DNA of 64,000 nucleotides from the human T2T-CHM13v2.0 reference genome, Homo sapiens: assembly GCF_009914755.1 (NCBI RefSeq), contig NC_060926.1; one strand, 5' to 3'. The notes under the pieces are model-generated. The model saw only the letters and a list, made by a program, of their open reading frames with translations. It was not told the DNA's origin and did not search any database. Made by a program: the position numbers and the translations under genes. Every line of letters starts with the position of its first letter. Within the stretch, counting starts at the first letter, position 1. Positions 3,230-51,300 of the stretch are shown piece after piece.

Positions 3230-5100
3230 ATTGTTTTAATCATTGTCATTTTAAACATGTTTTAACATCTGGTAGGAAACATACTCAAGATTTCCACAAC
3301 CTCCAAACATGCTTTGCTATTTATTTATTCTTAGGTTAGAACTACATTGAAATCTAAAATATAATGCATTAAATTTTAAAAATTATAATATAATTAAACC
3401 TGAAATTAGTTAAAATGTTTTATTTTCCCAACTGAGGACATGAAATGCTTCCCATTTACTCATGTTTCCTTCACATTCTGCTGTGAAAGTTGACAATCTT
3501 CTTATACAGATCTGCATGTTTCCTGTTATTCCTGGGTCTTGTAGAGGTTCAACAGTGTTTCGTCTATTGTTATTTTATTTTTCTCTGCTATAATTTCTAT
3601 CTAGCCATATCTGGTACCTACATAAACAGTTCATTTTCATATTTTAAAAGTCCAGCCATGTTACTAACTTGTGTGTTCATTCAAACAGGTTACTGATTCT
3701 CTTGGATATCCTGGATAATCAACTCTCTTTGATGTCTTAGATAGGCAAACATGTCATCTTTTACCAATGATAATTTTACTTCTCCTCTGTAATCGCTGAA
3801 ACTTTTATGTCTCTTTCATGTATTACTGAATGGTCTAATTTCTTGAAAGGTTGTGATAATGGGCCTTTAGGACCTTGACTTGCACCTGATTTTAATTGGA
3901 ATGTCTCTAATTATTCAACATTAGTATGCAGTTGGTTCTTGATTTTAGATATTCTTTATAATGTTTAAGAAGTGTCTTTATAATTTCCAGTTCACTACAC
4001 GTTGCTGTTATATGTGTTTTCATTTCCCATTAATCTGGAATGGGTAATAATTTCATTAAATGACTTCTCATACTTTTTGAGATTATTAGAAATGTTCCTT
4101 CTCTAATACATGAAGATTTATTAAAATAATACAACTAATTTTATAACAGCCCTTTATTTCAGGAATAAAACCGACATAGTCGTAGTATACCAATCTTTAA
4201 ATACAGTTCTGGATCTTAATTTCTTGGCATTTCATAAAGTTTTTCCCATTTATTTTCAAAACTACAGATGAGATCTTTGTTCCTTCTGTGCTATCGTTGT
4301 CACATTTTGGTGAAATAAATTTGTGAAATTTCTGTCTTTTCTCTGCTTTGAAACAACTTCAATAACATGAGAATTATTCCATAACACCATAAAATATTTA
4401 ACATTGCCTGTTCCTGGAGTCATTCCATATTATAGGTTTTCTACTATGTTTTAAATTACGTGTTTTATTCAGGTTTTTCATTCTTCTTGAAACATGTTTG
4501 ATTGTTTATGTTTTCATTAAAAAATTAATTTTGAGATAGTGAAATGTATTAATATAGAGCTTCCATGACTTATTCTCAATTCAAAAAAACTAAAAACTGT
4601 ATTTTGAATTTGTCAGTGCTACTCTTTTTTGCGTAAATGCATTAGCTTATAATCCCTGTTTGCCCTTTCTTCCTACAATTTGATTTTATTGTTATTCCTA
4701 CACATTAAAATTTCATAACGTTCATCCTTAATTAACTTAATTCATTTTGATGCTTTCAATAATGAAATTATTCATTATTATTCATTTCCCTGTGTGTATA
4801 GCTTTGGTCCCATTCTCTACCTTCTCTTACAGTTTCTTTATTTTTACTAGGTTTCTAATAAACATATTGCGGCTTTAATTTCCACTTAAACATAGAAATT
4901 GTTTAGATAGTGCTTTTAAATAATTTCTAATTAGTATATCTTTGCTTTCATTATTAAAAGTGTTTTTCAACTATTGTTATTAATATCTAGTGTTACACTA
5001 TCGGTATAAGAGATAATAACCTATATGATTTCTTCTTTGTAAAGTTTAATAAGGATTTATTTATGACTTGCTAACACACCCTAAATTATTTTAACTGTTA
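3230..5100 (-). mobile_element. Old L1M fragment
   Basis: T-rich degenerate antisense L1 ORF2-like text. Confidence 0.6.
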
Positions 5101-6359
5101 TTACCTACAAATATTAAAGGCAGGCCTTAACATCTTGTCATCTTGTGGGGGAGAGGGGTGCGGATTAAGACACATATCATTTTCAAGCCTATTTGTTCTC
5201 TATATGTGGAAGGGAGGCAAATACTCAATCCAAGAGTGATTCTTTTATAATGCTAATCCCATCCTTCTCCATCCCTCATACCCACTCTATAAGCACCCAT
5301 GTGCTGTGGCTGACTAGAGATGAGTGGTGAAATTTTACCTTATCAGGCAATGACAGATGACTTTGTTTACAAACTTTGTCTCTTGTCCTCCCCATTCCTA
5401 GGAGATTTAGTAGGATAGGTTTTCTCCTGCCATTCTCTCCAGGTGGGTACACTAGGTGCTCTTTAGATGTCAATTAGATCAAATTGAATAATGGATGAGA
5501 AAATGTCAGTCATGTTAACAGTTCAGTACTGCACTAATATGGAAAGGCATTATTTAAAACTGAATTTGGTAACAATAGTATCTAACTTTGTAAAAATTCT
5601 AATATATTTTTCCAAATGCTTGGTAAGCCTTTTAATAAGAACAATTATTGCTTCTTACAATTGCATATATTTGGGGGGGGTTCCAAAGTACTTGTTAATC
5701 TATTATTTCATGCAGCCATTTTAAATTATGGTGGTCTGTAAGGATTTGCGTCACTTGACAAATGAATATTAAGCATCAGATAGATAAAATATTAAGAAGC
5801 AAGTAAATTCTGTGCTTAATATCACAAAGATAACAGAAACAGTAAAAGAAGATGAGCTCAATAATAATTTCAATAATTCAAATAATTTCAATAATGAAAT
5901 TATTCACTATTATTCATTTCCCTGTTCGTATAGCTTTGGTCCCGTTCTCTACCTTCTCTTACAGTTTTCAGCTTTTGTAATCATCCATTTGAAAGAGCCC
6001 AGGTCCCACCCACATCCCCAGGACAGTCTGAGCTGGTTGGATTACGCATTCCATGCCCAGTGTAGCCCTAGTTGTTCCACATTTTACTTTCTACAGGTCT
6101 CCCATATTTCACTGTATGTAATGTTGCTTCCTATCTCCTCAGCTGGAATATGAGCTTCATTGATGATGTCTGTTCTCCCTAGGTATCTCGACTAGGGTTT
6201 CCTGAGAGAAGGAGCCCTGGGGATGGGTAGAATGATTCACAGAGACAGACATGGCAAGGAATGAGTGTGTTGATGGGCAGCCCGGTCACCTAGGTATAGA
6301 CCCTTTGAAACCTTGCACAACCATTCCTTAGACAATGTAGGCCAAGGGTATATGGAGGG

Positions 6360-13120: not shown

Positions 13121-16100
13121 ATGGACTTCAGAATGGGAGACCAAGATGGTCCTTTCCCTAAGAGCACCTTGCTGAGGCTGAGGAGTGCCACCTGGCTATA
13201 GATCTCAGGGGCTCTCTTCTCTAGGATTTTCAACCCAGGAGATCTCTTCTACACAGAGCTTTTGTGATATCTGTCACACACACACAAAGATAAGCTCCTC
13301 TCTTCTCTCCTAATTGATATCACCTGTGCTCTTCTCCTGCACAGCTTTTCCAAGCAGACAGCATGCAAACACCTCTAATTCTGCATAGTGGATTCAGCAC
13401 CAGTGGACATGTCCTTCTTATCTTACCAGAATGCCACACAGTTGCCACATCTAGGTGTCTGCCTCAAATCCAAGACCCCAGTCCCAATCTCAGAGTTAGC
13501 AAGGGCTTAATTTGAATCATACCTCTCCCACATACTGTCCACTTAACTTTGATGAAATCACCTAATCTCTGTGGTCTACAGTTTTATTATCTACAATATT
13601 GCTCTCAGGATTCTTAAAAATCATTGTACAGTGTCTGATGCATTACTGGGCCTAGTAGTTATATAATAAATGACAGATTTATCAATGATATACTCTGATA
13701 ACTTGTTAACAGATTACAGAGTCATGCACATCTGGGTTTGAATTTTACATCTATTACTTATTAACATTATGACCAGGAGTAATACACTTTTAATTTCTGG
13801 CACTCAGATTGTCTTTGCTGTAAAGATCATGAATCATAGTCCTCTATCTGCAAGGTCACTGTATTTGTTTTTCTACAAAATGTGTATTCAATAATGTAGC
13901 TATTGTTAAAAATTGTCTTTGACCAGCGCTCCTCCACAAGAAATTCCCATGGAAAAAGTGGACACAGAAAACACTAAGTGCCAAATAAACACCATTACTT
14001 TTAAGTTCCCACCACCCTAAATTCCCAAGGCAGGACCATGGAGAGCTCCTTTTGATTTTTATAAGCTTTTTCTGTTTTGTTTTGTTTTGTTTTTGTTCTT
14101 TCTCTCTAAGAACTGGAGCAGAGCATTCTTCTGAGATCTCCCATCTACCTTTTTATTTAAATATAAATTTAAATATTTACCTTGTTTTTTCTCTCACTCA
14201 CTGTATTCATGGCTATGTGTCAGTTCAGATGGGTTCAGCTGCATTTAAAATAAGAAAACCTTACGAAACATTGACTGTAAAAGATAGAAATTTATAAAAT
14301 AAGTTAAGATGCAGGTGTTTTATGGCTGGTAAGGCTGCCTGACATTCCCAGAGAGACTGAAACCTTTCCTTTTCTAGTCTGCCATCTTTAGCAAGGGGCT
14401 TTCATGTTCAAGGATGCCTCATGGTAAAAAGATAGCTGCTGGAGCTCCAGCTATTGTATTTAGATTTGAAGAAAGAAGGATGGAAAGAGGCTAAGGCCAA
14501 AATCCCCATTTCACTATCACCAGATATATAACATTACCATTCTGTAGCTACAAAAAAAAGCCAGGAAATGTGGCTTTTGTTTTCTAGGTCTCAGTTTCTC
14601 AACTTATAAAATTGAATATTTGGCTGTGTGATTTCGATGTCCTCTCCCACTTTATAATATGTGAACTTAAAAGACTGTATTTCCTGACTTTCTTTGCAAC
14701 TGAGAGATATCCATATGTGAGTAGCAACCAAAGAGTGGGACTTTTGGAGAGCAGTTTAAAGGGATTTGGTTCAGTTGGAAGACGTTTTAGTTGGGTACAT
14801 TGCTGCTCTGTGTATCAGGGTTCTATTGCTAAGAAAAGAGAGAGTAGGTTTTGGATAAGCAGCTCATGGTTTCTGCCATATAATATTACATTGTTTATTC
14901 ATAAATCAGTTACATTCCATAGGTAAATCTGCAACCATTCCCTACCTTTGTTACCTCTAAAATACCACGGTAGCTTCCTGCTCGTACCATAGTTGATCAC
15001 TGCACTCTGATTCGGTGGTACGAAACCCCCATAGGATTGGTTAAATTTTGATTGATTGAATTCTCCTTGTAATCTGACTCTGTCCAATCAGTTGGTGAAG
15101 TCTCATTCCCTAGGTTATCTACTCTTATACAGATAAGGAGCTATATGAGTTTATAGTTCACATAATAAATAAATGTTTTTATTTATTTATCAAACTTTCA
15201 CATTCCCAGTGAAGGATAATTCCCCAACACAGTCTGAACTTGGTCTTGTCTGGCTGCTTTATTAAATTGTCTACTCTACTGAATATTGTCCTACTTATAC
15301 TTAAAACATTCTAACTTCACCACTGTGTATATGATGTTCTTGTCTAAAAAATAATTCATTTAAAAAGTATAATGATTTAAATAACCTATAAAATAAAATA
15401 GACTCTACTAACAGCTACATATATTTTCAAAAACAGTAGAAGAATATTGCCACACCTGCAAATAATATTGCCTAATAACCATGAGATGGTTTTTGTGAGG
15501 CTGGCTATATAGCTATTATACTCCTATTATCCTACAAATTTTACACATTAAAAATCATGAGACCTACAGAGCCAAGAATCTTCTCCAAAGACAGTGATTC
15601 ACCCCACCCCCTATTTTTGTAGAACATCTGAAAATTTGGAACTTATTCAGTTTGGGCCTTTTTCTGTATTTGTTGTTGTTATAATGTGAATCAAGTACTT
15701 ATGACAATCCCTGTTTATGAAAAATGACTCATAGTTTTCAGCAAAAGTGCCAAGCTCAACTGTGTACAGCAGAGTATTGGGAAGAGAAAGTTAAATTTAG
15801 CCTCCAAGTGAGGAAATGAAGACAGGGAAAAAAAATTAAAACTGTTCTCCAACATCCTGCATCAATGTGTTGGGTGGCCTGTGCTTAGTCATAAAAGCAG
15901 CCAGAAAAAAAGAACAATAAATGCAAAAGACTTTTAAAGACGTAATGTGCAATATGCTCTAGAAGTGAATTAAAGATATTTAAGTTATTTACAAAGAAAA
16001 TGAAATGACCACTTTGTTATAGGATACAGGACATAAAATCCAGCAGTGAGCCATTCAGTGGACTTACAACAGGGATCGTGTCCTGAATTTTACCAAGCTA

Positions 16101-17028: not shown

Positions 17029-17236
17029 GGAACATCACACACTGGGGCCTGTCAGGGGGTGGAGGGCAAAGGGAGGGAGAGCATTAGGACAAATACCTAA
17101 TGCATGCGGGGCTTAAAACCTGAATGATGGGTTGATGGGTGCAGCAAACCACCATGGCACATGTGTACCTATGTAAAAAACCTGCCCTTTCTGCACATGT
17201 ATCCCAGAACTTAAAATAAAAATTAAAATAAAATAA
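17029..17236 (+). mobile_element. L1PA7/8-like 3' UTR fragment
   Basis: aacatcacacactggggcctgtc...gcacatgtatcccagaacttaaa followed by an A-rich tail. Confidence 0.9.
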
Positions 17237-21902: not shown

Positions 21903-22840
21903 TCACAAGCTTTTCTTACTCCTTCTGCCAAAGCAAGGTTTGATTCTTTATCATAATGAAAACTATCACTTTGTGGTGCCAAAAAAATCTATTTCTCCAA
22001 ATATCACTTTATTGTTGCACATATCGAAGATATTCTACATGTTTGTCTACAAGACTATCTCTTCAGTTAGACTGAAAGATCCTTGAGGGAAGGACTGTTT
22101 CTTATCACAGAACCCCATACAGGGAAAGGTTTACAATGCACATAGTAAGTGTTGAAATCAACAGAACTGAGTAGTCATTTTGTACAAATAGATTGATAAG
22201 TAGCTTTATTCAAATAAGTCCCAGCAAGTGCTGACAGACATAGCTCTGATTTATCACAAGAAGTGCAACTGATTTATTGACCACAGAGTTGTATGTTCTT
22301 TTGGCTGGTCTCTTGCTGCCCCTATAAAATGTATTCAATAGAGTTAATCTTCCCCTGATACAAAAATGAAATTGGGCAGATTCCATGCCTTTTCCTGGCA
22401 TACAAATGACAGAGTTTCTTACTTTAAATAACAAACCCAGCTTTACTCAAAAGTTAGAATGGACCAAATTTAAGATATTGATCTAAGGTTGGATTTTTCT
22501 TCCTCTTCCTTCAGGCTAAGACCTGTAGCTACTGCTGCCTCCCTCTAAGGAAGGTGAGGTGTTGGGACCAGCTCTTTCTCCACTCATCTCCATCACTACT
22601 AGCTAACTACTCTTTCCACCTTGACAGTTTAATCTGGTAGAAGAAGAGATAGGTATTAAAAAATTCTTACCTGACAGGTGACTTCCCACCTTCTGGTCTG
22701 TCTGATAAAGGTAAGTTTTTCTCATCAAAAGAGGTCTTTTTGATGGCAAATCTCATGATAGTGAACTTTCTCCAAACAATTCTTTGGCCTTGGATAATGG
22801 ATACATCTCTTGCCACTTGCAATTTCATTCTCAGCTCCTG

Positions 22841-23849: not shown

Positions 23850-24620
23850 CTCTTCCATCCCATAAGTTCAGGTTTTTTTCCTAGTTTTTTTAATTGGTAT
23901 GCCAAGGAACGTATGACTAGATATCAAATATTGTCAAACACTGTGTAGTTTTGTTTGTTGGGTGCTGGATTTCGTGGCAGATACATTACTTGGGATCAGC
24001 TTGATCCTTTTAAAGCTTATTTGTGTGTCTCTTAGGGTGCATCTAGAGTAGCCTCTAGTTTAAAACTAAGTAAATGAGGCTGTACTAAATACTAAGATTA
24101 TGCCTTTCTGAGCACTTTACCCACTTATGTATGGTTTATCAGGTTTCTTTATTTAGCTGGTGGAAATGCAAACTATTCCTAGTCCTCTACGAGCTCCTAG
24201 AATTGTTCAACTTCATGGTGTTTTACCCCACACATGTGCACCTCAATATTCAGACAGAGATTCTGGGGGATCCTCTATAGGCCTTTTCAGCTCCCTTCTC
24301 TCCAGTGCTTGTCTCCAAAATGCTAACTGCCTAGGATGCCAACCTCAATCTTCTCAATTCAGGGGAACTCTGGGCCCTGCTTGGGCTTTTCTTTCCCCTG
24401 CCAGGGCCTGGGAACTGCCTCCAGGCAGAGAGGTAGGGTGACTGCAAAGCTCACATGACTTATTTCCATTCTCTTAGAGATCGTACACACAGTCTTGCAC
24501 AGCCTGGTTGTCCAACATCTTGAAACAAATGTTCCATAGATTTTGACCAGTCTTGTAGTTGTTTGCAGTGGCAAAGCAATTCCCAGGGTGTTTATTCCTT
24601 CATGGGCAGGAGTGGGAGCC
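23850..24620 (-). mobile_element. Old L1M (MC/ME-type) fragment
   Basis: Degenerate antisense L1M 5'/ORF1-region motifs (gggtgctggattt, cttgatcctttt, gcctggttgtccaacatcttgaaac). Confidence 0.55.
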
Positions 24621-24855
24621 ATTCTAACTCCTATTTATACATCTGATTTAACCAATGAACCTGAATCCAAGAGGTATTTCTCAACCATTTATTTGGTCAA
24701 CTCTGCCTATGGTGGTTTGGCTTTGGAACTTTTTTATTTCATCTTACTGTTTGTAGGGAAATTTTAATTTCGACCTCCTCTTATAAGAGCTTTGAAGCCA
24801 GTAATCTATAAAAAACTGACTTAATTCACCTAATAGACTTGGAATTAAATTTTGT

Positions 24856-25000
24856 GTTTACTATATGCTTGTTTGGCATATAGTTTGCTATATGCAAGGT
24901 TGGCATATAGTTTGCTATACGCATGTTTGGCATATAGTTTACTATATGCATGTTGTTTACTATGTAAGCATATTGTTTACTATATGCTTGTTAGGCACAT
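24856..25000. repeat. 27-bp palindromic minisatellite
   Basis: Unit gtttrctatatgcwwgkttggcatata; three full copies plus partial copies. Confidence 0.92.
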
Positions 25001-25532
25001 CACAGCTCTGTTTCCAGATTCCTCACAGGGAAATATGGATAACAATTCCTGCTCCACTCATCTCTTAGATACACATCAAATGAAGGAACAAGTAACAGAG
25101 CACTTTGGAGTTGGAAGGGAATATAATCATCTCTATATCCCACCAGGTATTAGTAACTACCCAGTGAGTAATATTTATTATTTGATGTGCACCATATAAC
25201 TACCTTAGAAATTAGTAATATTATCTTCACTTTTGTTTTATTAGTCCTGATACAGCAGTTGAGGATTTGAAAGGTGAAGTAGCTTGCTCCATTTTACAGA
25301 GCTACTAAGGAGTAGCCTGGGATATGAATCCTGTATCATGCTGCCTGGTTTAAAAATTTGTTCTTTCCTTTTCCTTCAAAAGATGTCGTTTTTAGTCTTT
25401 TATGGGTCAGCTGGCATGCCTGCCACTGGATGTGGACTATATATCTGTAAGAATGACTACAAATACATTGTAGTTTCTTGTGCATTTCACATTTAACATG
25501 GCTGTTATCAGAATTTTATCTTCATCTCCCAG

Positions 25533-25768
25533 AAATACTAGTTTACAAATCAGAGCTGTGCCAAACCACAATTCTTATTAAGTTGCCTAGTAGGGAATCT
25601 TGAAACATTTTTAGAAGAAATCAGATCACTGCTTATCTTAAGATGCAAGACCTCTGCAAATCTTTTCTCTCTATAAAAACGATCCACCATCTAGTCAACC
25701 GATGCCCTGTGTTTGCAAATTCTGTCTATGCTAGAGTAGTAAGGTTAGTGAGAAAAGTTGAAAATCAG
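25533..25768 (+). pseudogene. Fossil exon (C-terminal half of the repeat 2 CNBD)
   Basis: Acceptor ttcatctcccag| and donor CAG|gtaaaa. 78 codons in one frame with a single TGA: EILVYKSELCQTTILIKLPSRES*NIFRRNQITAYLKMQDLCKSFLSIKTIHHLVNRCPVFANSVYARVVRLVRKVENQ. Ends in phase 0. Confidence 0.75.
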
Positions 25769-26207
25769 GTAAAATAAGATTACATTTAAAACAAGACCCA
25801 GGGTTGGCTTTTAATTTTGTTGTCAAATATTAAAACAAAAGAGCCATTGTCAGGAAGAGAGATCAATTATTCTGTAGGATTCCAAGAACTAGAAAAGGAC
25901 TTTTGGTTGAATTGAGGGGAGATACATTTCCACTCCATAAAAAGAAGAACTTAGAATGTTACAGTGAACAAAACCAGAATGAGATACCCAAGGAAGCCAT
26001 AGGTTCTTTATGTGGCATTGCATGATCACTTTGTTGGAGACAAGGAAGAGACCTTCACCTGGGACCATGGAAACCCCAAGTGGCCCCTGAATGGGATTTC
26101 AGAGGCCTGTGAATTTCTTAAAATTCTGTGTTTGAATGCAAATGCCCATTTGTTAGGGATGGTTTAAAGCTTTCCTTAGATTGTCAAAAATCTCCAAGAC
26201 TAAAACT

Positions 26208-26940
26208 AAATGCAAATCAAAACCACAATGAGATACCATCTCACACCAGTTAGAATGGCGATCATTAAAAATCAGGAAACAACAGGTGCTGGAGAGGATG
26301 TGGAGAAATAGGAACACTTTTACACTGTTGGTGGGACTGTAAACTAGTTCAACCATTGTGGAAGTCAGTGTGGCGATTCCTCAGGGATCTAGAACTAGAA
26401 ATACCATTTGACCCAGCAATCCCATTACTGAGTATATACCCAAAGGATTATAAAACATGCTGCTATAAAGACACATGCACACATGTTTATTGCAGCACTA
26501 TTCACAATAGCAAAGACTTGGAACCAACCCAAATGTCCAACAATGATAGACTGGATTCAGAAAATGTGGCACATATACACCATGGAATACTATGCAGCCA
26601 TAAAAAATGATGAGTTCATGTCCTTTGTAGGGACATGGATGAAGCTGGAAACCATCATTCTCAACAAATTGTCACAAAGTCAAAAAAACAAACACCGCAC
26701 GTTCTCACTCATAGGTGGGAATTGAACAATGAGAACATATGGACACAGGAAGGGAAACATCACACACCGGGGCCTGTTGTGGGGTGGGGGAAGAGGGGAG
26801 GGATAGCATTAGGAGATATACCTAAGGTTAAATGATGAGTTAATGGGTGCAGCACACCAACATGGCACATGTATACATATGTAACTAACCTGCACGTTGT
26901 GCACATGTACCCTAAAACTTAAAGTATAATAAAAAAAAAT
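26208..26940 (+). mobile_element. 5'-truncated L1PA (about L1PA4): ORF2 end and 3' UTR
   Basis: ORF2 C-terminal peptides (LEIPFDPAIPLL, MFIAALFTIAKTWNQPKCP) and 3' end gtaactaacctgcacgttgtgcacatgtaccctaaaacttaaagtataat with polyA. Confidence 0.95.
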
Positions 26941-27238
26941 TGGACACACACAAAAAAGAAAAGTCTATTAAACACAGAGCTATCTCATTATATTTGAATT
27001 CTCAGAGGAGATTTCTATTTTGAAAGGGAAGTTAGATTGTTTTTATTTCTGAAGCCCCTCATACTTCTAATATACTCTTTTCTAATTAAATGCAAGAGTA
27101 ACTAAGCAAATACATCTTTGAAAAATATAAGCTATAGCTCAGGATCAATGGCACATATGATAATAAAATAAAAAAATTTAACTATGCCCTGGCCACTTCC
27201 TAGATCCATTTACATTACATCAAGGTATTTTTTCCCAG

Positions 27239-27433
27239 ACAGAAGAACAATTTAAAGACTGCTTCTTGTCATTGCCTAAGACATTCACCCTATCACTAAA
27301 GAATCCAATTTTGAGAAACCAAAGGAACAGTACCCTAGAATTGAAGGAATCTACTATAAAAGAGTCCAAATTAATATTTCCCTTGTGAAAGAGTAGAGAA
27401 TTGGATATGCAACAATCAAAGTATGTAAGAAAC
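27239..27433 (+). pseudogene. Fossil exon (linker between repeats)
   Basis: Acceptor ttttttcccag| and donor AAC|gtaagc. 65 codons, phase 0/0, one TGA: TEEQFKDCFLSLPKTFTLSLKNPILRNQRNSTLELKESTIKESKLIFPL*KSRELDMQQSKYVRN. Confidence 0.7.
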
Positions 27434-27845
27434 GTAAGCATCAAATTAAAAAATATCTGAGAATGAAAAAATAGACTTCAATCAAAAATCCAAAGCCCAA
27501 AGCACACAAACTTCTTTCACTATTAGAGCACAGTGGAGCTCCTGTCAAACTGGATCTTTAAATATTTCCCCACTCCAACATCAAACATCTATCTCATCCT
27601 GAGGCAGTTTTCTCCTCTGACTTAATGTGACTGCAAGGGCACCCACTGGCCCTACCTGTGGAATAAAGACCTTTTAGTACATTCACAAAATTTACATGAC
27701 AAAAATGAAAGTAGATTTCCAGAGCTTTCAGCTTGTGCAATAGAAGGTTTAAAAATATGCCCTGTACATTTCAACTTCTCACTTAATAAAAAAAGTCCAT
27801 TTTTATTTAAAAAAAATACAAAAACCTTCACTTCTATTCACCCAG

Positions 27846-29127
27846 GAGGAGGATGACTCACTTTCTTAATCTCTTAAGTTTTTATTTAACTTTCTTGAGC
27901 CTCTGTCATAACAAGAATTCTCTGCCACAACCTGTCTTAAGTATCGGGGGAACCACCCCCAATATTTCAACTATTTTCTCTAAGTGTTGGCCGGTCTGAG
28001 AAATAAAGAGAAAGAGAACAAAGAGAGGAATTTTACAGCTGGGCCGCCGGGGGTGACATCACATATTGGTAGGTCCATGATGCCCCCTTTAGCCACAAAA
28101 CCAGCAAGTTTTTATTAGGGATTTCAAAAGGAGAGGGGTTGTATGAACAGGGAGTAAGTCACAAAGATCACATGCTTCAAAGGACAAAAGCAGAGCAAAG
28201 ATCACATGCTTCTGAGAAAACAGGGCCAGGACAAAATCAAAGATCACAAGGCAAAGGGCAAAATTAGTATTACTGATGTGGGTCTATGTTCAGCTGTGCA
28301 CGTATTGTCTTGATAAACATCTTAAACAACAGAAAACAGGGTTCGAGAGCAGAGAACTGGTCTGACCTCAAATTTACCAGGGTGGGATTTTTTCCCCACC
28401 CTAATAAGCCTGAGGGTACTGCAGGAGACCAGGGTGTATTTCAATCCTTATCTCAACCCCATAGGACAGACACTCCCAGAGGGGCCATTTATAGACCACC
28501 CCCCAGGAATGCAATTCTTTTCCTAGGGTCTTAATATTTAATATTCCTTGCTAGGAGAAGAATTTGGTGATATCTCTCCTACTTGCACATCCGTTTATAG
28601 GCTCTCTGCAAGAAGAAAAATATGGTTCTATTCTGCCCGACTCTACAGGCAGTCAGACCTTATGGTTGTCTTCCCTTGTTCCCTAAAATCGCTGTTCCTC
28701 TGTTCATTTTCAAGGTGCACTGATTTCATATTGTTCAAACACACGTTTTACAATCAATTTGTACAATAGTGGTCCTGAGGTGATGTACATTCTCAGCTTA
28801 CGAAGATAACAGGATTAAGAGATTAAAGTAAAGACAGGCATTAGAAATTATAAGAGTATTATTTGGGAACTGATAAATATCCATGAAATCTTCACAATTT
28901 ATGTTCAGAGATTGTAGTAAAGACAGGTGTAAGAAATTATAAAAGTATTAATTTTGGGAACTGATACATGTCCATATTAAAATGAAATCTTCACAATTTA
29001 TGTTCCTCTGCCACAGCTCCAGCTGGTCCCTCTGTTCGGGGTCCCTGACTTCCCGAAACACTTAAGTACCTTGATTTTGCCCAACTTATCCAGGAGTCTA
29101 TGGCAATAGAGAATCAACATGTACAAG
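27846..29127 (+). pseudogene. Fossil exon split by the MER11 LTR (27846-27941 + 29067-29127)
   Basis: Acceptor ttctattcacccag|. Removing the LTR and one TSD copy restores the frame: EEDDSLS*SLKFLFNFLEPLS*QEFSATTCLK^YLDFAQLIQESMAIENQHVQ. Ends in phase 1 at CAAG|ggaaat (an apparently mutated GT donor), matching the next exon. Confidence 0.7.
27942..29060 (-). mobile_element. MER11 solo LTR (HERV-K11/HML-8)
   Basis: Reverse complement begins tgtttcgggaagtcagggaccccgaac and ends ...cccccgata; 6-bp TSD cttaag at 27936-27941 and 29061-29066; internal tandem repeats. Confidence 0.95.
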
Positions 29128-29550
29128 GGAAATATTGAATAACAAAAATATTGTTTAACTCAGTCACTGAACAAGGTACATAATTTTTTAACTAAATTCT
29201 ATGTGAGATCTGGAATTTGAGATGTCAAGGTCAGGATTTGGAATTTGAGATCAAATGTTGCTGGATATTGCCTGGCTACAACTCAGAAAAGTTGGTGGAA
29301 TCAGATAGAAGTAGAGAAAAATAAATTTGGAAGATAAAGTGAGTTTATTGCTTACATAACTGATTTAAATCATTTAATGACAGTAAGCAATCTTTTTATG
29401 AGATTCACATTGCTGTGGGAAATCACCCAACAATAGTTAACTTGGTACATTGGTCATGTAGGGGAAACTAAAATAAAGTAATGGATTTAGGCAGGCAGCA
29501 GTGTTATTTTATTGTATAAATTAGGACTGCATATGCCTTGCTTTGTTCAG

Positions 29551-30179
29551 ATCTCATATCTTTAAATGATTTGCAAGAAGAGAGGCACAAGAATGTTGAG
29601 GAATCAAGACTCCAAAAAGGCAGGAATTAAAATAAAATACCCAGGAGAACATCAAGAACAAGGTTTTCCACCAGCTATTACTTCCAGGATGGAATGCTAT
29701 ATGTTAAAAAAAAAAAAAAAGAAGTTTTGGTCAGCACAAGCCAACTTGAGGATGTCTATGTAAGATTACTCCAGTTCCAGGAAAGAGAAGGAATCTCTTT
29801 CTTAAAATTGAACCAATCTGTTGACGACCCACTGGATTCCTAAGAGTTTGTCTAATATTCCAAATTATCCATTAATTGTATCCAGACCCTACAGTCTCAA
29901 TTACCAAGGTAAAAGTTTTCAAAGGAAAAAAACTGGCTTAATTACACGTTTGTTTCTAATTTGGAAGATGTCCAAAGGAATTTTATAAACAAACAAGAAT
30001 TGGCTTCCTTGAAGAAAATAACTAGTTTGACTCTTCTCATTAGTATCATCATTATCATTTATTACTCTTATGTTATTGCATTGCCTGTTTACTACCAGTA
30101 TAATGAGACAAGTGATGATCCCAAGTTTAAATATCTGTGGCAGATTTCTTGTAATGTAAAACTGACTGGAAACTTCTAG
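29551..30179 (+). pseudogene. Large fossil exon (linker plus hydrophobic segment)
   Basis: Acceptor ctttgttcag|, phase 1. About 209 codons in one frame with only four TAA stops before the TAG at 30177. Includes EVLVSTSQLEDVYVRLLQFQEREG and the TM-like LTLLISIIIIIYYSYVIALPVYYQY (ORF-track 29961..30179 is this frame). Confidence 0.7.
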
Positions 30180-30879
30180 AAATAAAAAAACAATACATTT
30201 CAACCATCAAGTGGAATATAAAAAATAAATTCACTGGTAAAAGAACACATTAAAACTTTCAAAAGAGTAGCAGCTTAAGAGATTTGAAGATTTATAATCC
30301 CATTCATAAAGTATGCATGAGTTTCTTCTTCATGTGGCCAAAGGAAAAAGTGTACTGGATCTATTTTATTAGTAGATGCATGAACAGGGATAGGGTAGCT
30401 TCTTCCAGGATGATCTGCAGATGCAGCTTTCTAAGGATCAAAGGAGTTGTTCAATTAGGTCAAGTTTGCTGAAGGCCAAGATTTTCTGGACTCCTCACCT
30501 TTTCTGCAGGATAAATCTCTATTCATCTTTTACAACATAACTCAGGTGTAACCTCCTCTGGAAGGTGACTTTGCTGTCACCTTCTCCACATCCTCCCAAA
30601 ACTCTACCACTCTCTTCTGTGTTATATTTGTATTTTGTACATATACTTGGTCACTGGTCTAATCAAACAGCATTACAATCTGTTCCTCATAGGTCTTGCT
30701 CCTCGATTAAATTTCCTTCATTTATTTTATAAACATTTATTAGACACCTGCAGTTTCAGACTTGCACTGTGGAGTCCTTGAGAACAGACACAATGTTTTA
30801 TTCATGTCATTCTCTTCAAAACTTGCCACAGTGCCTGGCTCCTGGTAGGTGTTTAGTAAATATTTGCTAAGCTGAATTC

Positions 30880-31448
30880 CTATGCCATCTCTGTTTGCTC
30901 TTATGTATGATGGCTTCTATTGGATCTGTAGTGAGATAATTTAAGAGTAGAAATATGTTTAGTGGCTAAACTTCCTCAAATATAAATCACTAACTAAGAA
31001 AGGGGGAATTCTGAATATAATATTTTTTATTAGCATAGATTCAGCCACTTTTCCGCAGATATGTTACTAAAAAATATTCAGTGTGTCATAGGTTAGCAAC
31101 CTTCTAACATATTCAGGTTTTCACCTATATTTGTGAAGGAAAAAGTTTTAAATCTGAACAGTTAATTTCTCTTTATGCATTCAATTTGAGTTTCCAGAAA
31201 GAGAGGGAGGACACTGAAAAAGAGGAGAAAGATTTGGAAGTAGCATATCTACTGTGGTTTTTTATTGATACTTGGGTCCTAACAGGCTAAGGTAAGCCAA
31301 TGCTTTGAGGAGCATTTCTACAAGCAATTTTTATCTCAGGGGTCATTTTCCTAACTTAGGCTACACAAACATAGAGTTTACGTCTATAGAAGTAATATAG
31401 AAGTTCTATAGAGGTAATAGCCTTTTTGCTCTCTTTACTGATCAGAGG

Positions 31449-31491
<43 letters not shown>

Positions 31492-32120
31492 CCCATCTAC
31501 TTTGGATATGTTTAGAAATGGTCCACATTATTTTCCACCTCTTTAAATGAGAACATACATTTGATAATTATATTTATGATAGTAACTTGAAAGAATTTGT
31601 GTGTGTGTGTTTTAAAAAGGTATTTTTAATAATTCATATAGTTTATAATTTTTAACGGAAATTTAATTCTGTTCAAAATGTGAAACTTCTTTATCACTTT
31701 CAAGTTCAGAATCTGGAATTTGAGGCCTTATGCTGCTAGACATTTCCTGGCTACACTTAGAAAAAGAGTTGATGGAATCAGATAAAAGTAAAGAAAGAAA
31801 GAAAGTAAGAGTCAGTCATTATGTAACACCAGAAAGTCAACGAGAACTAATAACTAAGTCATGAACTAATCATCAATTTGTTGTGTGACCTTGGGTACAT
31901 TCTCTTCAGTTTCTTCATTTTTGCTCTCTGAGCTGATTGGGCTATTTTGGAGCACTAATTCCATTAAATCTGATATCACAGACAGGCCGCGAGGTCCTCT
32001 GTCCTTGACTGACCTTATTATCTACCAAAAAAAATGTTCAGATTTAAAGATTCAGTCAAGATTCTATTTTTTCCTAATGTGATTACTTTTAATCTCAACA
32101 CAAAATAGCGATTTTCATGT
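30880..32120 (+). pseudogene. Channel fossil repeat 3
   Basis: RRYVTKKYSVCHRLATF 31054-31104 (S2-S3 loop and S3); LNLNS (S4-like); KEREDTEKEEKDLEVAYLLWFFIDTWVLTG 31198-31287; NLGYTNIEFTSIE 31353-31391 (cf. TVGYGNI.P.T..E); LLW about 31496; LIGLFWSTNS...LTDLIIYQ about 31933-32028 (CNBD start). Confidence 0.65.
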
Positions 32121-36630: not shown

Positions 36631-37590
36631 TTATTATTACTGGTATTACTACCATTGTGTTTTTATTGCCTCCCACAAGAATATTAGCTGAGAATAAGAA
36701 TTATAACTTCATCACACTTCTATGATTTATAGCACCAGGCCCACTGATTTTCGAATCTTAGTGCTCAACAAATATTAATTAAATTAATTTTGAGTTCTTC
36801 TTCTGAGACCACTGCTATCTAACATACGTTGTGTGACATTTATAAGGAAGATATTAATCTCCATAGTTAAGATGATAATCATAGTAATTCACAAGATTGC
36901 TTTGGGGATTAAACAAAACAATATTTATAAATCATAAGGTGCTATACAAATGTTGGAAATTCTTTAGGAGAAAAAATGCTACATAAAGGAGATCTTAAGA
37001 AGTGGATCTGTTTAAAGGTAAGGTGAAAAGAAGTATTTGAGGAGCAAGTAAAATTGAGCACCTGAGCGGAGGTCTCTGTAAGTGCCATATACCAAGAGGC
37101 GGCAAGGAGACCAGTCTAATGCACATAGAGATGGTACAAAGACCAGCAAGTAGTTTGGTATTTTGCTGGGCAGGGAATAGTGGCGGTGGCTCCTCTTCCT
37201 GCAGGGTGACAGGTGAGAAAACTCTGGTGAATCCAACACGAAGAGTCAATGCACACGGAAGGTTGGGACATTCCGTTCTGGGTCTGGGAACCCATAGGAG
37301 TTCTGTTTGAATGTCAGACAGGATATGAAAGAGCATATTCAAACTATGAGGCAGAGGTAGTGGATACCTTGAAAACAATCTCATTAATTAAAACTGATTA
37401 ATTACTAAAACGGTTTTTAACCATGATGCTAGGCCCTAGTGTTACAGAAATGAGTGAATTCACATTTCCTATCTTCACAATCTAGGGGAGGAAACAAATG
37501 TTTAAATTATCAAGTGCAATAAAATTTTCTGAATGTTATTATAAAATTCTGTTTGGGGTTGAGCAGGAGTATGGTGAAGCAAGTATTTGA

Positions 37591-37984: not shown

Positions 37985-39466
37985 TCAGTAATTCTTGGTA
38001 ATAGCAACAGAGGTTTCATAAATATTATAATCCCTAATTTTGCGGTAAAGCATGGGGAAAGGGTGTAAAAGGAAAATAAGCAGCAGGAATGCAGGACGGT
38101 ATGTTGTGTTAATTGCAACAGTTTGATTTAGCTAAGTGAGGTAGAAGCAGTGAGAGGTGCAGCTGAAATGACTGACAGGGATGAGACCATGGAGAACCTT
38201 TTATAACAAGAAATGTAGACAGGGTTTCCACCAGTAGGTGATGGGAAGCTACTGAAGGATTTTAATCAAAAGAATAATATGAGCCGATTTGTGTTTTAAA
38301 AAGATTGCAATGAAATGGAGGCAGTAAATGGTCAATGCTATTTTGTTAATTAATGGAAGAATGAATATGTAGTTTTTCTTTTTAAGCCCTTCAAACATCC
38401 CACACAGTGGTAGGTATTCTGCAAGTCAAAGGAGATGTGTTTATACAAAATATTTCCTCAGAGGCCAGTAAGGGCTGGATTAGTTGCGTAAAGCTCCATA
38501 AGGAAAGAAATATTTGAGTTGGGCTGTGAATATATATCAAGAGAGCGAATTGAGGAGGAAGTAAAATTGAGCACCTGAGTGGAAGTCTCTCTAAGTGTCA
38601 CATATTACACTTATTATCTAATAAGAGAGAAGGGAAATATGGATACTAAACCTCTCCAAATCTGATTCCTCATCTGTAAAATGCAGACGATCATAAAGGC
38701 TACCTTATGTAACTGTTAGGAGTAAATGATTGAATGCATATTAAAAAGTAACCATAATTCCTAGCACACAATATGTTTTTAATCAGTGGTATTTATTCAA
38801 ATGGAAGGAGATGAGTAGATTTGAGATGTACTGGAAAAATGCAAGAGTTTTAAGTCAAATTAATTAATATTTTGTAGGACTAACCATGAGCTAGTCTTGG
38901 TACAAAGTCTTTTCTGTGTATTACCCCTGTAACAGATTTATGGGTTTGGTACTATTATTGTTTCTTTTTTATGCCTGAGAAACCTGTGTTTTAGAGATAA
39001 GTACTTTGTTCAAGATCAGATAGCTATAAGAGGCAGAGCCAAGACTGAAACAATCTGTCTAATTCCAAAGTTTATTGTCTCAACCACTACCTTATACCAG
39101 CTCTGATATTTACTTGCTGTAGTACCATGAGCAAACTTTAGCCACTATGGGCCAGTTGCTTCACTCACTTCCTCTACCCCGTGAGCATACCACCGCACAA
39201 TATTTCTCCATTACAACTGAGATTGGCCGTATGATGGAGTTATGGCCAAAGGCATATGAGCAGAATTAATGTATGCTGTAACTGCCAGAATTAGTTGAGT
39301 CAGAGTGAGTGGGTGTTAGCCACTGTTGACAACATTTTTAAAGACACTACAATAAATGAACTCAAGTAAGAATTGAGTAGTTTAGAAGCAGAAATAGAAG
39401 AGAATGGAGAAAATTCAAAGATACAAATTCACAGAGTTAGAATGCCAACTTTTTTGGTTCTAAGAT

Positions 39467-40110
39467 ACTATATTTAATTAATTATAAGACATACACTTTT
39501 CACATTTTAATATATTTGACTATGGAATGGTCCTTAAAATTTCCATCATCTCATAGTCGCTGTTGACTATGTGATGACTGTGACACAGTTGTCATTGCCT
39601 GCACATGTGTAAGCTTGCTACTTATTCCTATGCTTTATTGGATAACAACATCTCTTAAATATTTCAACCAATAAACCATTAATGGGAATTGGAGGAAGAA
39701 ATATGAATAAAGGTTGTATGTGAATGCCTTCTCCTGACAGGTGGATAAAGCTTCTATAAAATTAAAAACAAAAATGAAAAATGTGTCAGCATTAAAACAT
39801 ATACAGCAATTATTACTAACTTGGAAGAAAATCTTGGGGACAATAATGGAATACTTTAAAAAAAAAGTACCGTCAATACTTTCCATGACATAGAAGATGA
39901 TATTGCATGAAAAAAACACAGGTATCCAGAAATATTAGTCAGAAATTGATTTTTAAAATTTAACGGTGAATTCATAGAATTTTTGAAATGATGTAACCAA
40001 TTTCCTTACTTTCATTTGCCTCATGATGTATTTATAAAATGATATATAATATAAAAATATATGTCTAAACTTCCTTTCTAATAAAGCTGAATAAAGTCCT
40101 ATCAAACAAT
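39467..40110. mobile_element. Kanga/MER104-like Tc2 DNA transposon remnant
   Basis: ctatattt..taagacatacacttttcacattttaa terminal motif; boundaries approximate. Confidence 0.5.
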
Positions 40111-40934
40111 CTTCCAGGGAATAACAAGTATAAACTTCATAAAAAGCATAAAACACACTGTAGGATTAAGAAAAGACACTGAAAAACAATCAAAAGGAGG
40201 TATATTTTAGAGAGGGGTTGACAACTTGGAAGAATACAATAAGATGAATTTATTAGTCCTATAGTTTTAACCTGAGAGAAGACCTCAAACAGTTCACTTT
40301 ATACAGAAAACCTGCATTTTTTTCTAGACTAGAGAGACTCAGACAACAGAATTTACATAAACCATAGCAGCTGTAAAGTGAAGAGAAACTTCCAGAAAAA
40401 TGAGAGAAAGAGCTCTAACTTCTATGCATATACTCTGCTCCAAACCTCTGGCTGAACTCCAAGTTTTGCATACACAGGGAAAACTTCAGGCTCTCAAGCT
40501 AAGGACAAATGAACTGAACTAAGGTTGGAGCTACCAATGGAATGCCAACAGAAAGACAGTTTGAGCCCAATCAAGTAAATTGCCAGCTAAAAACCACCAG
40601 AAAAAGAAGATTTTTTAGGAATACTACAACAGAATCTAAAGTTTTCATCACATAAAAATTCCAACGTCCTAGATATCATAAAAAAATTCTTCACACAAAA
40701 AGAGACAGGAAAATATGATCTTTGAATCAGATAGATGAGAATTTAAGTCTTAGGACTAGCCATGGGATCTTGGACAAGTTTCTGAATTTTGCTAAGCTCA
40801 TAATTTCTTATCTAAAGTATTTTTAATTTTTTTTAAAAAAATCTGAAGTCAACCTCATTTTATGAAGTTTTGTCAGAATCACAGGCAATAATGCATAGAG
40901 TACCTGCCACATAATAGCATTAATCTGATATTAA

Positions 40935-45060: not shown

Positions 45061-45262
45061 CAGGGTTTCTCAACCACAGTGCTATTGACATTTGGGGCTG
45101 GATGATAATTTGTTGTGGGGGGATGTCGTGTGCACTGTGGGATGTTTAGCAGCCTCTCCCTGCTCAAGAGATGCCAGGAACAACCTCCAGCCCCTCAGCA
45201 TCACAATCCAAAATGTCTCTACACGTTGCCTGTGAGTAAAATTGCTCCAGTTGAGGATGACT
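45061..45262 (+). mobile_element. MER20
   Basis: cagggtttctcaacc..tattgacatttggggctggat..aaaatgtctc..gttgag. Confidence 0.85.
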
Positions 45263-46921: not shown

Positions 46922-47100
46922 TCATAATTATTGCAGCACTATTCAAAATAGCCAAGATATGCAATCAACCTAAGTGTCCATCAACAGATGAACGGATAAA
47001 GAAAATGTGATATATATGCACAAAGGAATACCATTTGTCCATAAAAAATACTGGAATCATGTTATTTGTCATAGCATAGATGATCCTGGAGGACATTGTT

Positions 47101-48396: not shown

Positions 48397-51300
48397 ATTT
48401 TGAAGCAAGACCAAATCATTGGCTTGGCCCCAGTTTTAATGTAATTGGCTGTATTATCACAACTGAATAAAGATCCTGGGATTGTACTGGGAAGAACATA
48501 AACAGTGGAAGGTCAGGAAAGGAAGAGCTAGTGAGGGAGACTTTAAAGTAGACATCCAAGGGTCCTGTGGGCCAAAGGTGGCCTGTTGGACCCTTAAAAG
48601 CATTTATCATCTTGACAGTGGGCATGGTGACTAAGGCTGATGCATGAAGCCATACTCAATTTACTCAATTTATGAAACTACCAGTCTTTACCCGATTCCA
48701 AGTTTACTAGCAACCTTGACTTCCTGTGTACTTTGTCTACAGGGAGTGTATTGTTTAGACCAAAAAGAAGAGTAGGCCTGGCTGACAGTTTTCTTTTTCT
48801 TGGTAAATGCACAACATTGTTCCTGGTTTACATAAGTGAATTTACTCAGTAGGAATTGACCTTCCCAAATATGATCAACTCTGGAACATTGGTAAGTTTG
48901 AGTTTCTTGACCTGTGGGACTAGAAGGGCTAGATCTGAGACTTCTGTGGTTTCAGCAAAGTAAATACCAAGCGGTGAGGCCTCACCACGGCAACTCTTAT
49001 TCTAATGTCACATCTGTCCTTGCCAATGCCTTTATCTCCACTTTCTCCACGGAACACTAAAATATCCATCCTTAGGATTCAGTCCAACTGTTTCATAACA
49101 AACTGCAATTATAAACTCCTACATGATGTCACAATAGCATCAGTTCAATCATGATTTTCTTGCCAAGTAAGCTCCCCTGAATGTAACTATGATTGTTTTT
49201 CTACAGAAACCACTCCATCTGGGATGCATGGGCTCCGAGAGAGCAGTGCATCTCCAAATCTGACAGACATCCAAGACAATTCACTCGAAATTTTGTTGTC
49301 ATTCTTTTTTCTTTCTTCTTTAAAGTGCCAGTCCTCCCCAAGATTCTGGGAAAGGTTCTGATTTTGTCATTTTAAATCTGTTCTTTCTCTACAAATAAGA
49401 TCTATTCATTTGCAATTGACAAGTCTTGGAAAATACAAAAGAAAAACTTAGACTGGCTAATGCATTTTTAATATTTATGGGCACAAAGCACATGTGTGTG
49501 TTTGGTCTACTGCCTAGTGCTTGGTAGAACTCACAATGTGAAATAATAGTCACTTGAAAAACCTAAAACTTGTAAGGAACAGAATAAACACTTTCCCAGA
49601 ATACTCTGCAAAATGGTTAGCTCTGTATTACCCTGTGCAGGGTAGATTTGGAAGTGCTGCATGAAGCTGAAATAAACACCTGAGTTATAAATAGTGAGAT
49701 GATCAACGCAGTTGAGTAAATGTTGAGATCCAGAAACATCTGGTGAGTTTTTACTTTCTCACCTGCCATCTCTCTGCTGTCGTCTTCTTCCAAACAGTGC
49801 TCAAATTTGTTTCTTCTAAGCTGGGGGGAAAGAAAATCTCCTGAGCGGTTCAGCAAATATCCCAGTGTTGCTGACAAAACCAAATAACGATTAGTGCCAT
49901 CTCTTCGTTGACAATTGCTGCCTCCGTTATCAGGGTCTGTCAGCTCACTCCTCTCAGGTGTGCATGCACTTCTGAAACCTGTGTCTCCACCCCTGCCATT
50001 CGCTGGGTGCCTCTAATGGGCAGCAGAACATCTTTGTTACTGTGCCTCAGCATGGAGTTGTCAAGGAATATGGCCGTCCCTAGGAAAAGGAAAGACAATA
50101 AAGCTTCAGTCATAGGATTTTCACAAAGGCGCAGCCACTTTCAAACCCAAACTACCCGAAGTAAAGGCAGAGCACAGCTGCACCTTCCCAGTGATGGGGC
50201 CCAGGAAGTGTCAGCCACATCTGTTAGCTCCTGTTTGGTTTCGATAGCAAACCTGCCAGAGTTCTCCATCAGCAGTTGTTCAGCCCCGCTGAAGCTGTCA
50301 TCTCACCAGGTAATTGAGCTACCTATGATGCTCCACATCACACTTTATTGGGGGAATATAACACTGTGGTGGAGAGTGTTTAAATATTTTTCCCATGGAA
50401 GTCACATAGTAACTATTGTGGCTGAATTCTTAAACTTCTGTTTTGTAATGACTGCTATTTGTATTGCATTTCTTAATTTATAAATCACTCTCCTATACAT
50501 TATCTTTTCATTTTAGTCACCAACCAGTAAAAGGTGACTATTATTATATAAGTGCAGAAATAAAGAGGATAAGTAAAATTTGCCTGTGATTACTCAAAAA
50601 AGAGAGAGCCAAGACTCAAATCCTGGACCTCCAATTACAAATCTTGCTCTCTTCCAATCTTGGAACTTATAAAGTCTAAGCAATAAGAAGGCACAGCTCA
50701 GCAGCTGGGGTTCCCAGGTTCTAACTTCATTTGTTAGGCCTTGTACTCTCCTGCAAAAATTATCCTGAAAATATCTAATTTGGACCTGAGATATTTTTGA
50801 GGATTACTGAATCTGCACATTATACAACGTATGCAGGCACACACATGCCCCCTTAACATATATATATGTGTGTGTGCGTATTAAACTATTGAGCTTTTAA
50901 AATTTTCTCAAGCAAAACCATAATAGACAAGTTGGAAATCTGTATAGTACTTGAGAATGAAGATGAGAGATGTGTGGCTCCAAGAACTAGGAGATATAGA
51001 AGATACCAGATCCAACGTAGCTGCTCCTGGACCAGATCTTACTCAATGATGTTGGCACATCCAAAGAAAGAATATTCCATTTTAAATGAATGGTGAACAC
51101 AAAAAACAAACTGAGAAGGGAAAACTGCCATTACTCTGGTGGGGGAGAAACTAGAGGACCATTCCTTGCAGGGAGGTGGGTGCCAAAATGCTTCGCCCAG
51201 CAAATAATAGTTGCAGCAGGCTTGGTGCTGTGTCTGAGTCTGCAGAGATAAATGAGGCATGGAGGTGTTTTCCTGGAGCTCACAGAAAATAAAGCAAGCA

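What the first reader, a model, noticed from the sequence alone, without database searches (positions are those of the whole stretch)
25533..30179. Chain of four phase-compatible fossil exons with no frameshift
SEEN: exons 25533-25768 (phase 1/0), 27239-27433 (0/0), 27846-29127 minus the LTR (0/1) and 29551 onward (1/-) splice into one frame of about 400 codons. It has only eight internal stops before the TAG at 30177, all TGA or TAA and one substitution from CGA or CAA, with AG acceptors throughout. This is homology-independent evidence for a dead gene. The frame looks better preserved here than in the TM parts, which may reflect chance, later relaxation, or continued use of these splice sites by a lncRNA.
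Basis: seen in the sequence. Interest (0 to 1): 0.7.

Follow-up and report, generated by a model that had tools for sequence, protein, structure and literature searches.

The report
Likely dead gene downstream of LRATD1
A single-copy, unannotated stretch of human chromosome 2 holds four segments that read in one frame with few stop codons, and it is likely the remnant of a protein-coding gene that probably died in primate ancestors, though its family could not be named.

Summary
The count holds: 405 codons, 8 internal stops, TAG at 30177; the other frames have 25 and 33 stops. Three corrections. (1) 29127 is not a GT donor; the nearest in-phase GT (29175) adds a ninth stop. (2) The homology-free evidence is modest: naive P is 1.6e-4, but once splice sites are chosen freely 3-4 of 250 shuffles and 3 of 36 genomic windows do as well. 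(3) 'No frameshift' is unlikely as history: under neutral decay 8 stops with 0 frameshifts has P at most 7e-4, against about 0.04 for 3 stops plus 4 frameshifts. Support comes from elsewhere: a codon-position signature (P about 0.01); the extended last exon 29551-30470 beats 97 of 97 AT-rich windows; and two unnamed database fragments match it, one in frame over 65 residues at 56%, one close relative frameshifted at the A-run. The locus is single copy. Pfam, PDB, fold and channel-profile tests named no family. Verdict: likely an unannotated unitary pseudogene (0.65); exon 4 is best supported, exon 3 least.

The parts
25533..25768 (+). Candidate fossil exon 1 (78 codons, one TGA at 25601)
   Evidence: AG acceptor 6.0 bits, GT donor 3.5 bits; stop P 0.055; no second copy in the genome; its last 27 residues are the best, still non-significant, match to a CNG/HCN/KCNH profile
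26205..26970 (+). Repeat in intron 1, ending in an A-tail; likely the 3' end of a primate L1 (family recalled)
   Evidence: Masked in the hub note; pieces shared with 17031-17231 and 46923-47090
27239..27433 (+). Candidate fossil exon 2 (65 codons, one TGA at 27386)
   Evidence: Weak acceptor 0.6 bits, donor 2.3 bits; rival donor after 27420; stop P 0.10
27846..27935 (+). Candidate exon 3, part before the insertion (two TAA, 27867 and 27909)
   Evidence: Acceptor 5.6 bits; stop density no better than chance, P 0.41; frame not fixed by the data
27942..29060 (.). Solo LTR-like insertion, 1119 bp, between 6-bp target-site repeats (27936-27941, 29061-29066); MER11/HERVK11 family and minus orientation are recalled, not tested
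   Evidence: Direct repeat; 2207 candidates in the genome, 40 other matches listed at 83-92% identity
29061..29175 (+).
29551..30179 (+).
   Evidence: Stop P 0.006; homologous fragments P0004 and P0005; single copy
29706..29720 (+). 15-base A-run; in frame with P0005, but P0004 changes frame here
29812..29985 (+). Open alternative frame (58 codons) over the cluster of three stops at 29841-29910; possible compensated frameshift
   Evidence: Stop map and best path
30027..30083 (+). Predicted single transmembrane helix (hydropathy 2.45 over 19 residues), partly encoded by an ATC/ATT-rich run
30155..30472 (+). Possible continuation of exon 4 in another frame (one stop in 105 codons); competes with a true stop at 30177 followed by AATAAA at 30181 and 30224
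   Evidence: three-base periodicity above the 99th percentile of the window at 30181-30480

Best explanation
These single-copy segments are likely the decayed exons of a spliced, plus-strand protein-coding gene, predicted to have encoded a membrane protein, that probably lost function in a primate ancestor and has since drifted neutrally. Shown: the low-stop frame, AG acceptors, an LTR-like insertion with target-site repeats inside segment 3, no second copy in the genome, and two database fragments homologous to exon 4. The protein family is not identified.
For: Stops 8 of 404 codons against 23 expected. With stops removed from real and control frames, G is commoner at codon position 1 than 2 (+0.086, P 0.0135) and G+C is lower at position 2 than 3 (-0.091, about 1% tail) among 2000 random frames. 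29551-30470 has the best frameshift-tolerant stop score: 0 of 97 windows with GC up to 0.37 reach it, 8 of 276 overall. P0005 (63 aa, E 7.8e-7) matches residues 7-71 at 56% with no stop and only whole-codon gaps; under neutral drift an open frame has P 0.03-0.05 and frame retention P 0.02-0.12. No paralog by protein or DNA search of the genome. An unguided chain search returns the same four acceptors.
Against: 3 of 36 genomic windows give an equally stop-poor chain and 10 of 36 an equal combined score. Exon 3 has no GT at the stated end and chance-level stops. P0005's replacements are not more conservative than neutral (P 0.13-0.20), and such a fragment can only be found if it is open and in frame, so its support is inflated by selection. 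No full-length relative of 365-4200 aa was found and none among 1.84 billion representatives, though these libraries may hold few vertebrate proteomes. Overall codon-position chi-square is not significant (P 0.14) and the purine test is null (P 0.58). Periodicity of equal height occurs at several other places in the window, and the predicted helix lies on a triplet-like run. No Pfam, PDB or fold match.
Confidence: 0.65

Rival explanations
1. Ordinary A-rich intergenic DNA: the chain is the best of many possible AG..GT combinations, and the database fragments are chance open frames called in host DNA of other mammals.
For: Genomic windows match the chain score in 3 to 10 of 36 cases; 8 stops with no frameshift does not fit neutral decay of one gene; other frames are open for 40-65 codons in the same stretch; P0005 looks neutral in its replacements; no family match anywhere.
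Against: Stop-independent codon-position signal; top rank among 97 AT-rich windows; in-frame open homologue at 56%; only 3-4 of 250 shuffles reach the chain.
Confidence: 0.23
2. Only the large segment 29551 to about 30470 is a coding fossil (a single exon, an old retrocopy whose parent has diverged or gone, or a piece of an ancient low-copy mobile element); segments 1-3 were attached by chance.
For: All homology evidence concerns exon 4; exons 1-3 have P 0.055-0.41 each; exon 2's acceptor is weak and exon 3 lacks its donor.
Against: AG acceptor of 3.9 bits directly before the frame; no parent or second copy found; exon 1 has good sites at both ends.
Confidence: 0.12

Closest known systems
Human unitary pseudogenes found by whole-genome PhyloCSF (Mudge et al. 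2019, PMC6886504; 44 loci, several lost in primates or in primates and rodents, many of uncharacterised proteins)
   Same: Single copy, multi-exon remains, several premature stops, damaged splice site, no RefSeq model.
   Different: Not among the 44 rows of Data S3 (the chr2 rows lie at 112.4 and 230.1 Mb); no intact ortholog has been shown here.
Cyclic-nucleotide-regulated channels (CNGA, HCN, KCNH) and the four-repeat sperm channel CNGK (Fechner et al. 2015, PMC4749565)
   Same: By eye, the end of exon 1 resembles the C-linker end and first helix of the nucleotide-binding domain, and a soluble stretch is followed by a hydrophobic helix.
   Different: No test was significant: exon 1 P 0.11, E 0.06, 2 of 60 shuffles; exon 4 P 0.10-0.23 with alignments that disagree with one another; no selectivity-filter motif. 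CNGK is reported absent from mammals, birds and amphibians (passage).
Solo LTR of the HML-8/HERVK11 group (MER11) for the insertion
   Same: About 1.1 kb, high copy, 6-bp target-site repeat. That MER11 is the HML-8 LTR: 10.1101/2022.05.11.490678, passages.
   Different: The family name for this copy is recalled; no repeat library was at hand.

Membership tests
Unitary pseudogene | Disabling lesions in the reading frame | tested here: met
   8-9 stops, an insertion in segment 3, no GT at 29127
Unitary pseudogene | No functional parent or paralog in the same genome | tested here: met
   Exon 4 protein, exon 4 DNA and exon 1 protein find only themselves; next best E 1.6 and 3.6. Exons 2 and 3 were not searched; the tool scores only a first look's candidates.
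Unitary pseudogene | Intact syntenic ortholog in another species | not testable with these tools
   No vertebrate genome but the own one; P0005 is an unplaced 63-aa fragment
Unitary pseudogene | Retained exon-intron structure | tested here: inconclusive
   AG at 4 of 4 starts, GT at 2 of 3 stated ends; chain P 0.012-0.016 against shuffles, 3-10 of 36 genomic windows as good
Unitary pseudogene | Past coding constraint | tested here: inconclusive
   Codon-position signature about P 0.01 in two of four statistics; P0005 in frame but replacements neutral-like; PhyloCSF could not be run
Processed pseudogene | Parent gene elsewhere in the genome | tested here: not met
CNG/HCN/KCNH/CNGK channel | Cyclic-nucleotide-binding domain | tested here: not met
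   No Pfam hit; profiles from human paralogs not significant
CNG/HCN/KCNH/CNGK channel | Six-helix unit with pore helix and selectivity filter | tested here: not met
   One hydrophobic helix in the chain; no filter motif in six frames; Kv/Nav and CNG/KCNH profiles rank nothing in the chain
Solo LTR (MER11) | Target-site duplication and many dispersed full-length copies | tested here: met
Solo LTR (MER11) | Match to the family consensus | not testable with these tools
   Name recalled

The most novel reading that the evidence does not exclude
The locus is the fossil of a multi-repeat cyclic-nucleotide-regulated channel of the CNGK kind that survived, unrecognised and fast-evolving, in mammals until the primate line, with further decayed exons near 14.6-15.2 kb and 39.5-40.4 kb of the window.
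Probability: 0.06. Interest if true: 0.8.

Novelty: new member of a known kind. Interest (0 to 1): 0.38.

Why it matters
If real, it adds an unlisted gene loss to the human record, in an interval where RefSeq shows nothing, and points to a membrane protein that other mammals may still make. The case is also a caution for scans of raw sequence: a low-stop chain picked by eye loses two orders of magnitude of significance once splice-site choice is counted, and 'no frameshift' alongside many stops is a sign of hidden frameshifts or chance, not of better preservation.

Tried and rejected
Family searches, all blank: Pfam on exons 1, 2, 4, on 15 read-through frames and on 148 + 150 stop-free plus-strand stretches (148 of 171 listed for 12-45 kb at 38 aa or more, 150 of 153 listed for the rest at 41 aa or more; none over a curated cut-off, best E 4.6e-4 to Noelin-1 at 45089-45232, below cut-off); the minus strand was not scanned against Pfam. 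PDB by sequence (best E 0.64). Word-index protein search for 365-2000 aa, 30-33 aa and 1320-4200 aa; lengths of 34-364 aa were not covered. AlphaFold2 on a 3-row alignment: pLDDT 44, Foldseek best E 0.8, both uninformative. Viral and prokaryote contig scans. Rfam 24000-32000: 0 matches. Channel idea from motifs seen by eye: rejected as unproven after HMMER, hhalign and frameshift-aware tests; a pore-helix-like word at 39633 was found with a pattern written after seeing it. Plasmid relatives of the nucleotide-binding domain were listed but not used. The protein-language-model atlas gave no result, earlier scan notes were not available, and DNA flanking the window was not read, so exons outside the window remain unexamined. 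Literature: FAM84A+NBAS+synteny 0 papers; unitary pseudogene+FAM84A 0; LRATD1+NBAS 1, a CNV study that only lists the genes (passages); channel+unitary pseudogene 0; no paper found for the indel rate, which is therefore recalled.
Full report
Setting. The hub places the window on human chr2 (CHM13 14,694,001-14,758,000), between LRATD1 and NBAS, with no RefSeq gene; the own-genome tool gives the same place.

1. The observation. The four segments, with 27936-29060 removed, give 1217 nt and 405 codons in the frame that starts at the third base, with 8 internal stops (2 TGA, 6 TAA) and TAG at 30177; the other two frames hold 25 and 33 stops. The insert is bounded by a 6-bp direct repeat at 27936 and 29061 and is a dispersed repeat: 2207 candidates, 40 other matches listed at 83-92% identity, most of them near full length. 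All four starts follow AG. One stated end is wrong: 29127 is followed by GG; the nearest in-phase GT follows 29175 and brings a ninth stop. The remark that each stop is one change from CGA or CAA holds for any TGA or TAA.

2. Is it more than chance? With a local stop frequency of 0.058, 8 stops in 404 codons has P 1.6e-4; exon by exon P is 0.055, 0.10, 0.41 and 0.006. A search for the best four-exon AG..GT chain found the same four acceptors but other donors for exons 2 and 3 and another frame for exon 3. Its score was reached by 3 of 250 (stops only) and 4 of 250 (with splice strength) block-wise dinucleotide shuffles, many of which formed no chain, and by 3 of 36 and 10 of 36 non-overlapping genomic windows of both strands, 2 of the 10 overlapping the chain. 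The homology-free case is therefore suggestive only. Splice matrices were approximate and recalled.

3. Independent signals. With stop codons removed from both sides, the chain has more G at codon position 1 than 2 (P 0.0135) and less G+C at position 2 than 3 (about the 1% tail) than 2000 random frames; a purine statistic (P 0.58) and the overall chi-square (P 0.14) were not significant. Three-base periodicity exceeds the window's 99th percentile at 29911-30180 and 30181-30480, as it does at several unrelated places. Allowing frameshifts, 29551-30470 outscores all 97 windows with GC up to 0.37 and all but 8 of 276 windows.

4. Relatives. HMMER over 1.84 billion representatives returned 2 proteins for exon 4, both unnamed and without context; I infer that they are gene-caller frames from animal DNA. 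P0005 (63 aa) aligns to residues 7-71 at 56% identity, has no stop, and needs only whole-codon gaps, one of them opposite the human TAA at 29628. In simulations of neutral drift to this identity, an open frame has P 0.03-0.05 and frame retention P 0.02-0.12, but the replacements are no more conservative than neutral (P 0.13-0.20), and only open, in-frame fragments could have been found. Its identity suggests a relative at monkey distance (inference), in which the frame is also broken. No full-length relative turned up, and the human genome holds no second copy of exon 1 or exon 4.

5. The 'no frameshift' claim. In this sequence 5.4% of substitutions make a stop. With 8 to 16 substitutions per indel (recalled range), decay long enough for 8 stops should leave 7-15 frameshifts; the best joint probability of 8 stops and none is 3e-5 to 7e-4, against about 0.04 for 3 stops and 4 frameshifts. 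So the TAG at 30177 may not be the ancestral stop, although AATAAA follows at 30181 and 30224.

6. What the gene was. The chain is hydrophilic except for one predicted helix at 30027-30083, partly on an ATC/ATT-rich run. By eye several pieces recalled cyclic-nucleotide-regulated channels. I tested this with profiles from human paralogs fetched here: exon 1 gave P 0.11, hhalign E 0.06 and 2 of 60 shuffles, and ranked 15th of 258 hits in a window-wide scan; exon 4 gave P 0.10-0.23; pieces at 14.5 and 39.5 kb gave 0.50 and 0.52; no filter motif exists in six frames. Pfam, PDB and fold searches were blank.

7. Mechanism. Most likely (0.65) a plus-strand spliced gene for a fast-evolving membrane protein was inactivated in a primate ancestor; an LTR then or later landed in exon 3 and an L1 piece in intron 1, and the remains have drifted since. 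The lesions and single-copy state are shown; joining of the four segments, the timing and the protein type are inferred. Rivals: chance chain in intergenic DNA (0.23); only the last segment is a coding fossil (0.12).

8. Known or new. It would be a new member of a known class, unitary pseudogenes. It is not among the 44 rows of Data S3 of Mudge et al. 2019 (PMC6886504; read: passages, Data S3 whole); FAM84A, NBAS, LRATD1 and two coordinate prefixes were absent from 7 of its 9 supplementary files, and six coordinate prefixes gave no relevant row in the held half of Data S6 (hg38 offset recalled; the other half was not seen and may bear on this). The one supplementary file of PMC10195156 had none of six terms (otherwise search listing only). 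Searches found no description of the locus. Other papers seen as passages only: PMC4749565, PMC6660944, PMC10485952, 10.1101/650218, 10.1101/2022.05.11.490678. GENCODE and alignment-based gene-loss catalogues could not be consulted, so it may already be listed there.

Verdict: observation largely right, one donor wrong, interpretation partly supported; interest 0.38.

Noticed in passing
window 39545-40420 (+): A-rich, low-GC stretch with protein-like pieces in shifting frames; possibly another decayed exon, but no test rose above chance.
   Followed up: partly
window 14588-15200 (+): 112-codon open frame followed by hydrophobic pieces; single copy, no Pfam or PDB match.
   Followed up: partly
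window 22515-22710 (+): The strongest AG..GT pair in the window (12.5 and 8.0 bits); 2-5 stops per frame, no Pfam match; a candidate non-coding or fossil exon upstream of the chain.
   Followed up: partly
window 4733-4835 and 5865-5967: Local 103-nt duplication at 87% identity, 1132 bases apart.
   Followed up: no
window 24856-24950: Three tandem copies of a 27-nt unit, 88-90% alike.
   Followed up: no
window 49875-50480 (+) and 49763-50079 (-): Longest open frame of the window (202 codons), overlapped on the minus strand by a strong AG..GT pair (8.9 and 7.2 bits); no Pfam match.
   Followed up: partly
window 45089-45232 (+): 48-codon stretch with a weak Noelin-1 match (E 4.6e-4, 20.7 bits, cut-off 25), probably chance among 298 stretches.
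   Followed up: no
window 37026-37091 and 38539-38604: 66-nt direct repeat at 83% identity, 1513 bases apart, unmasked.
   Followed up: no
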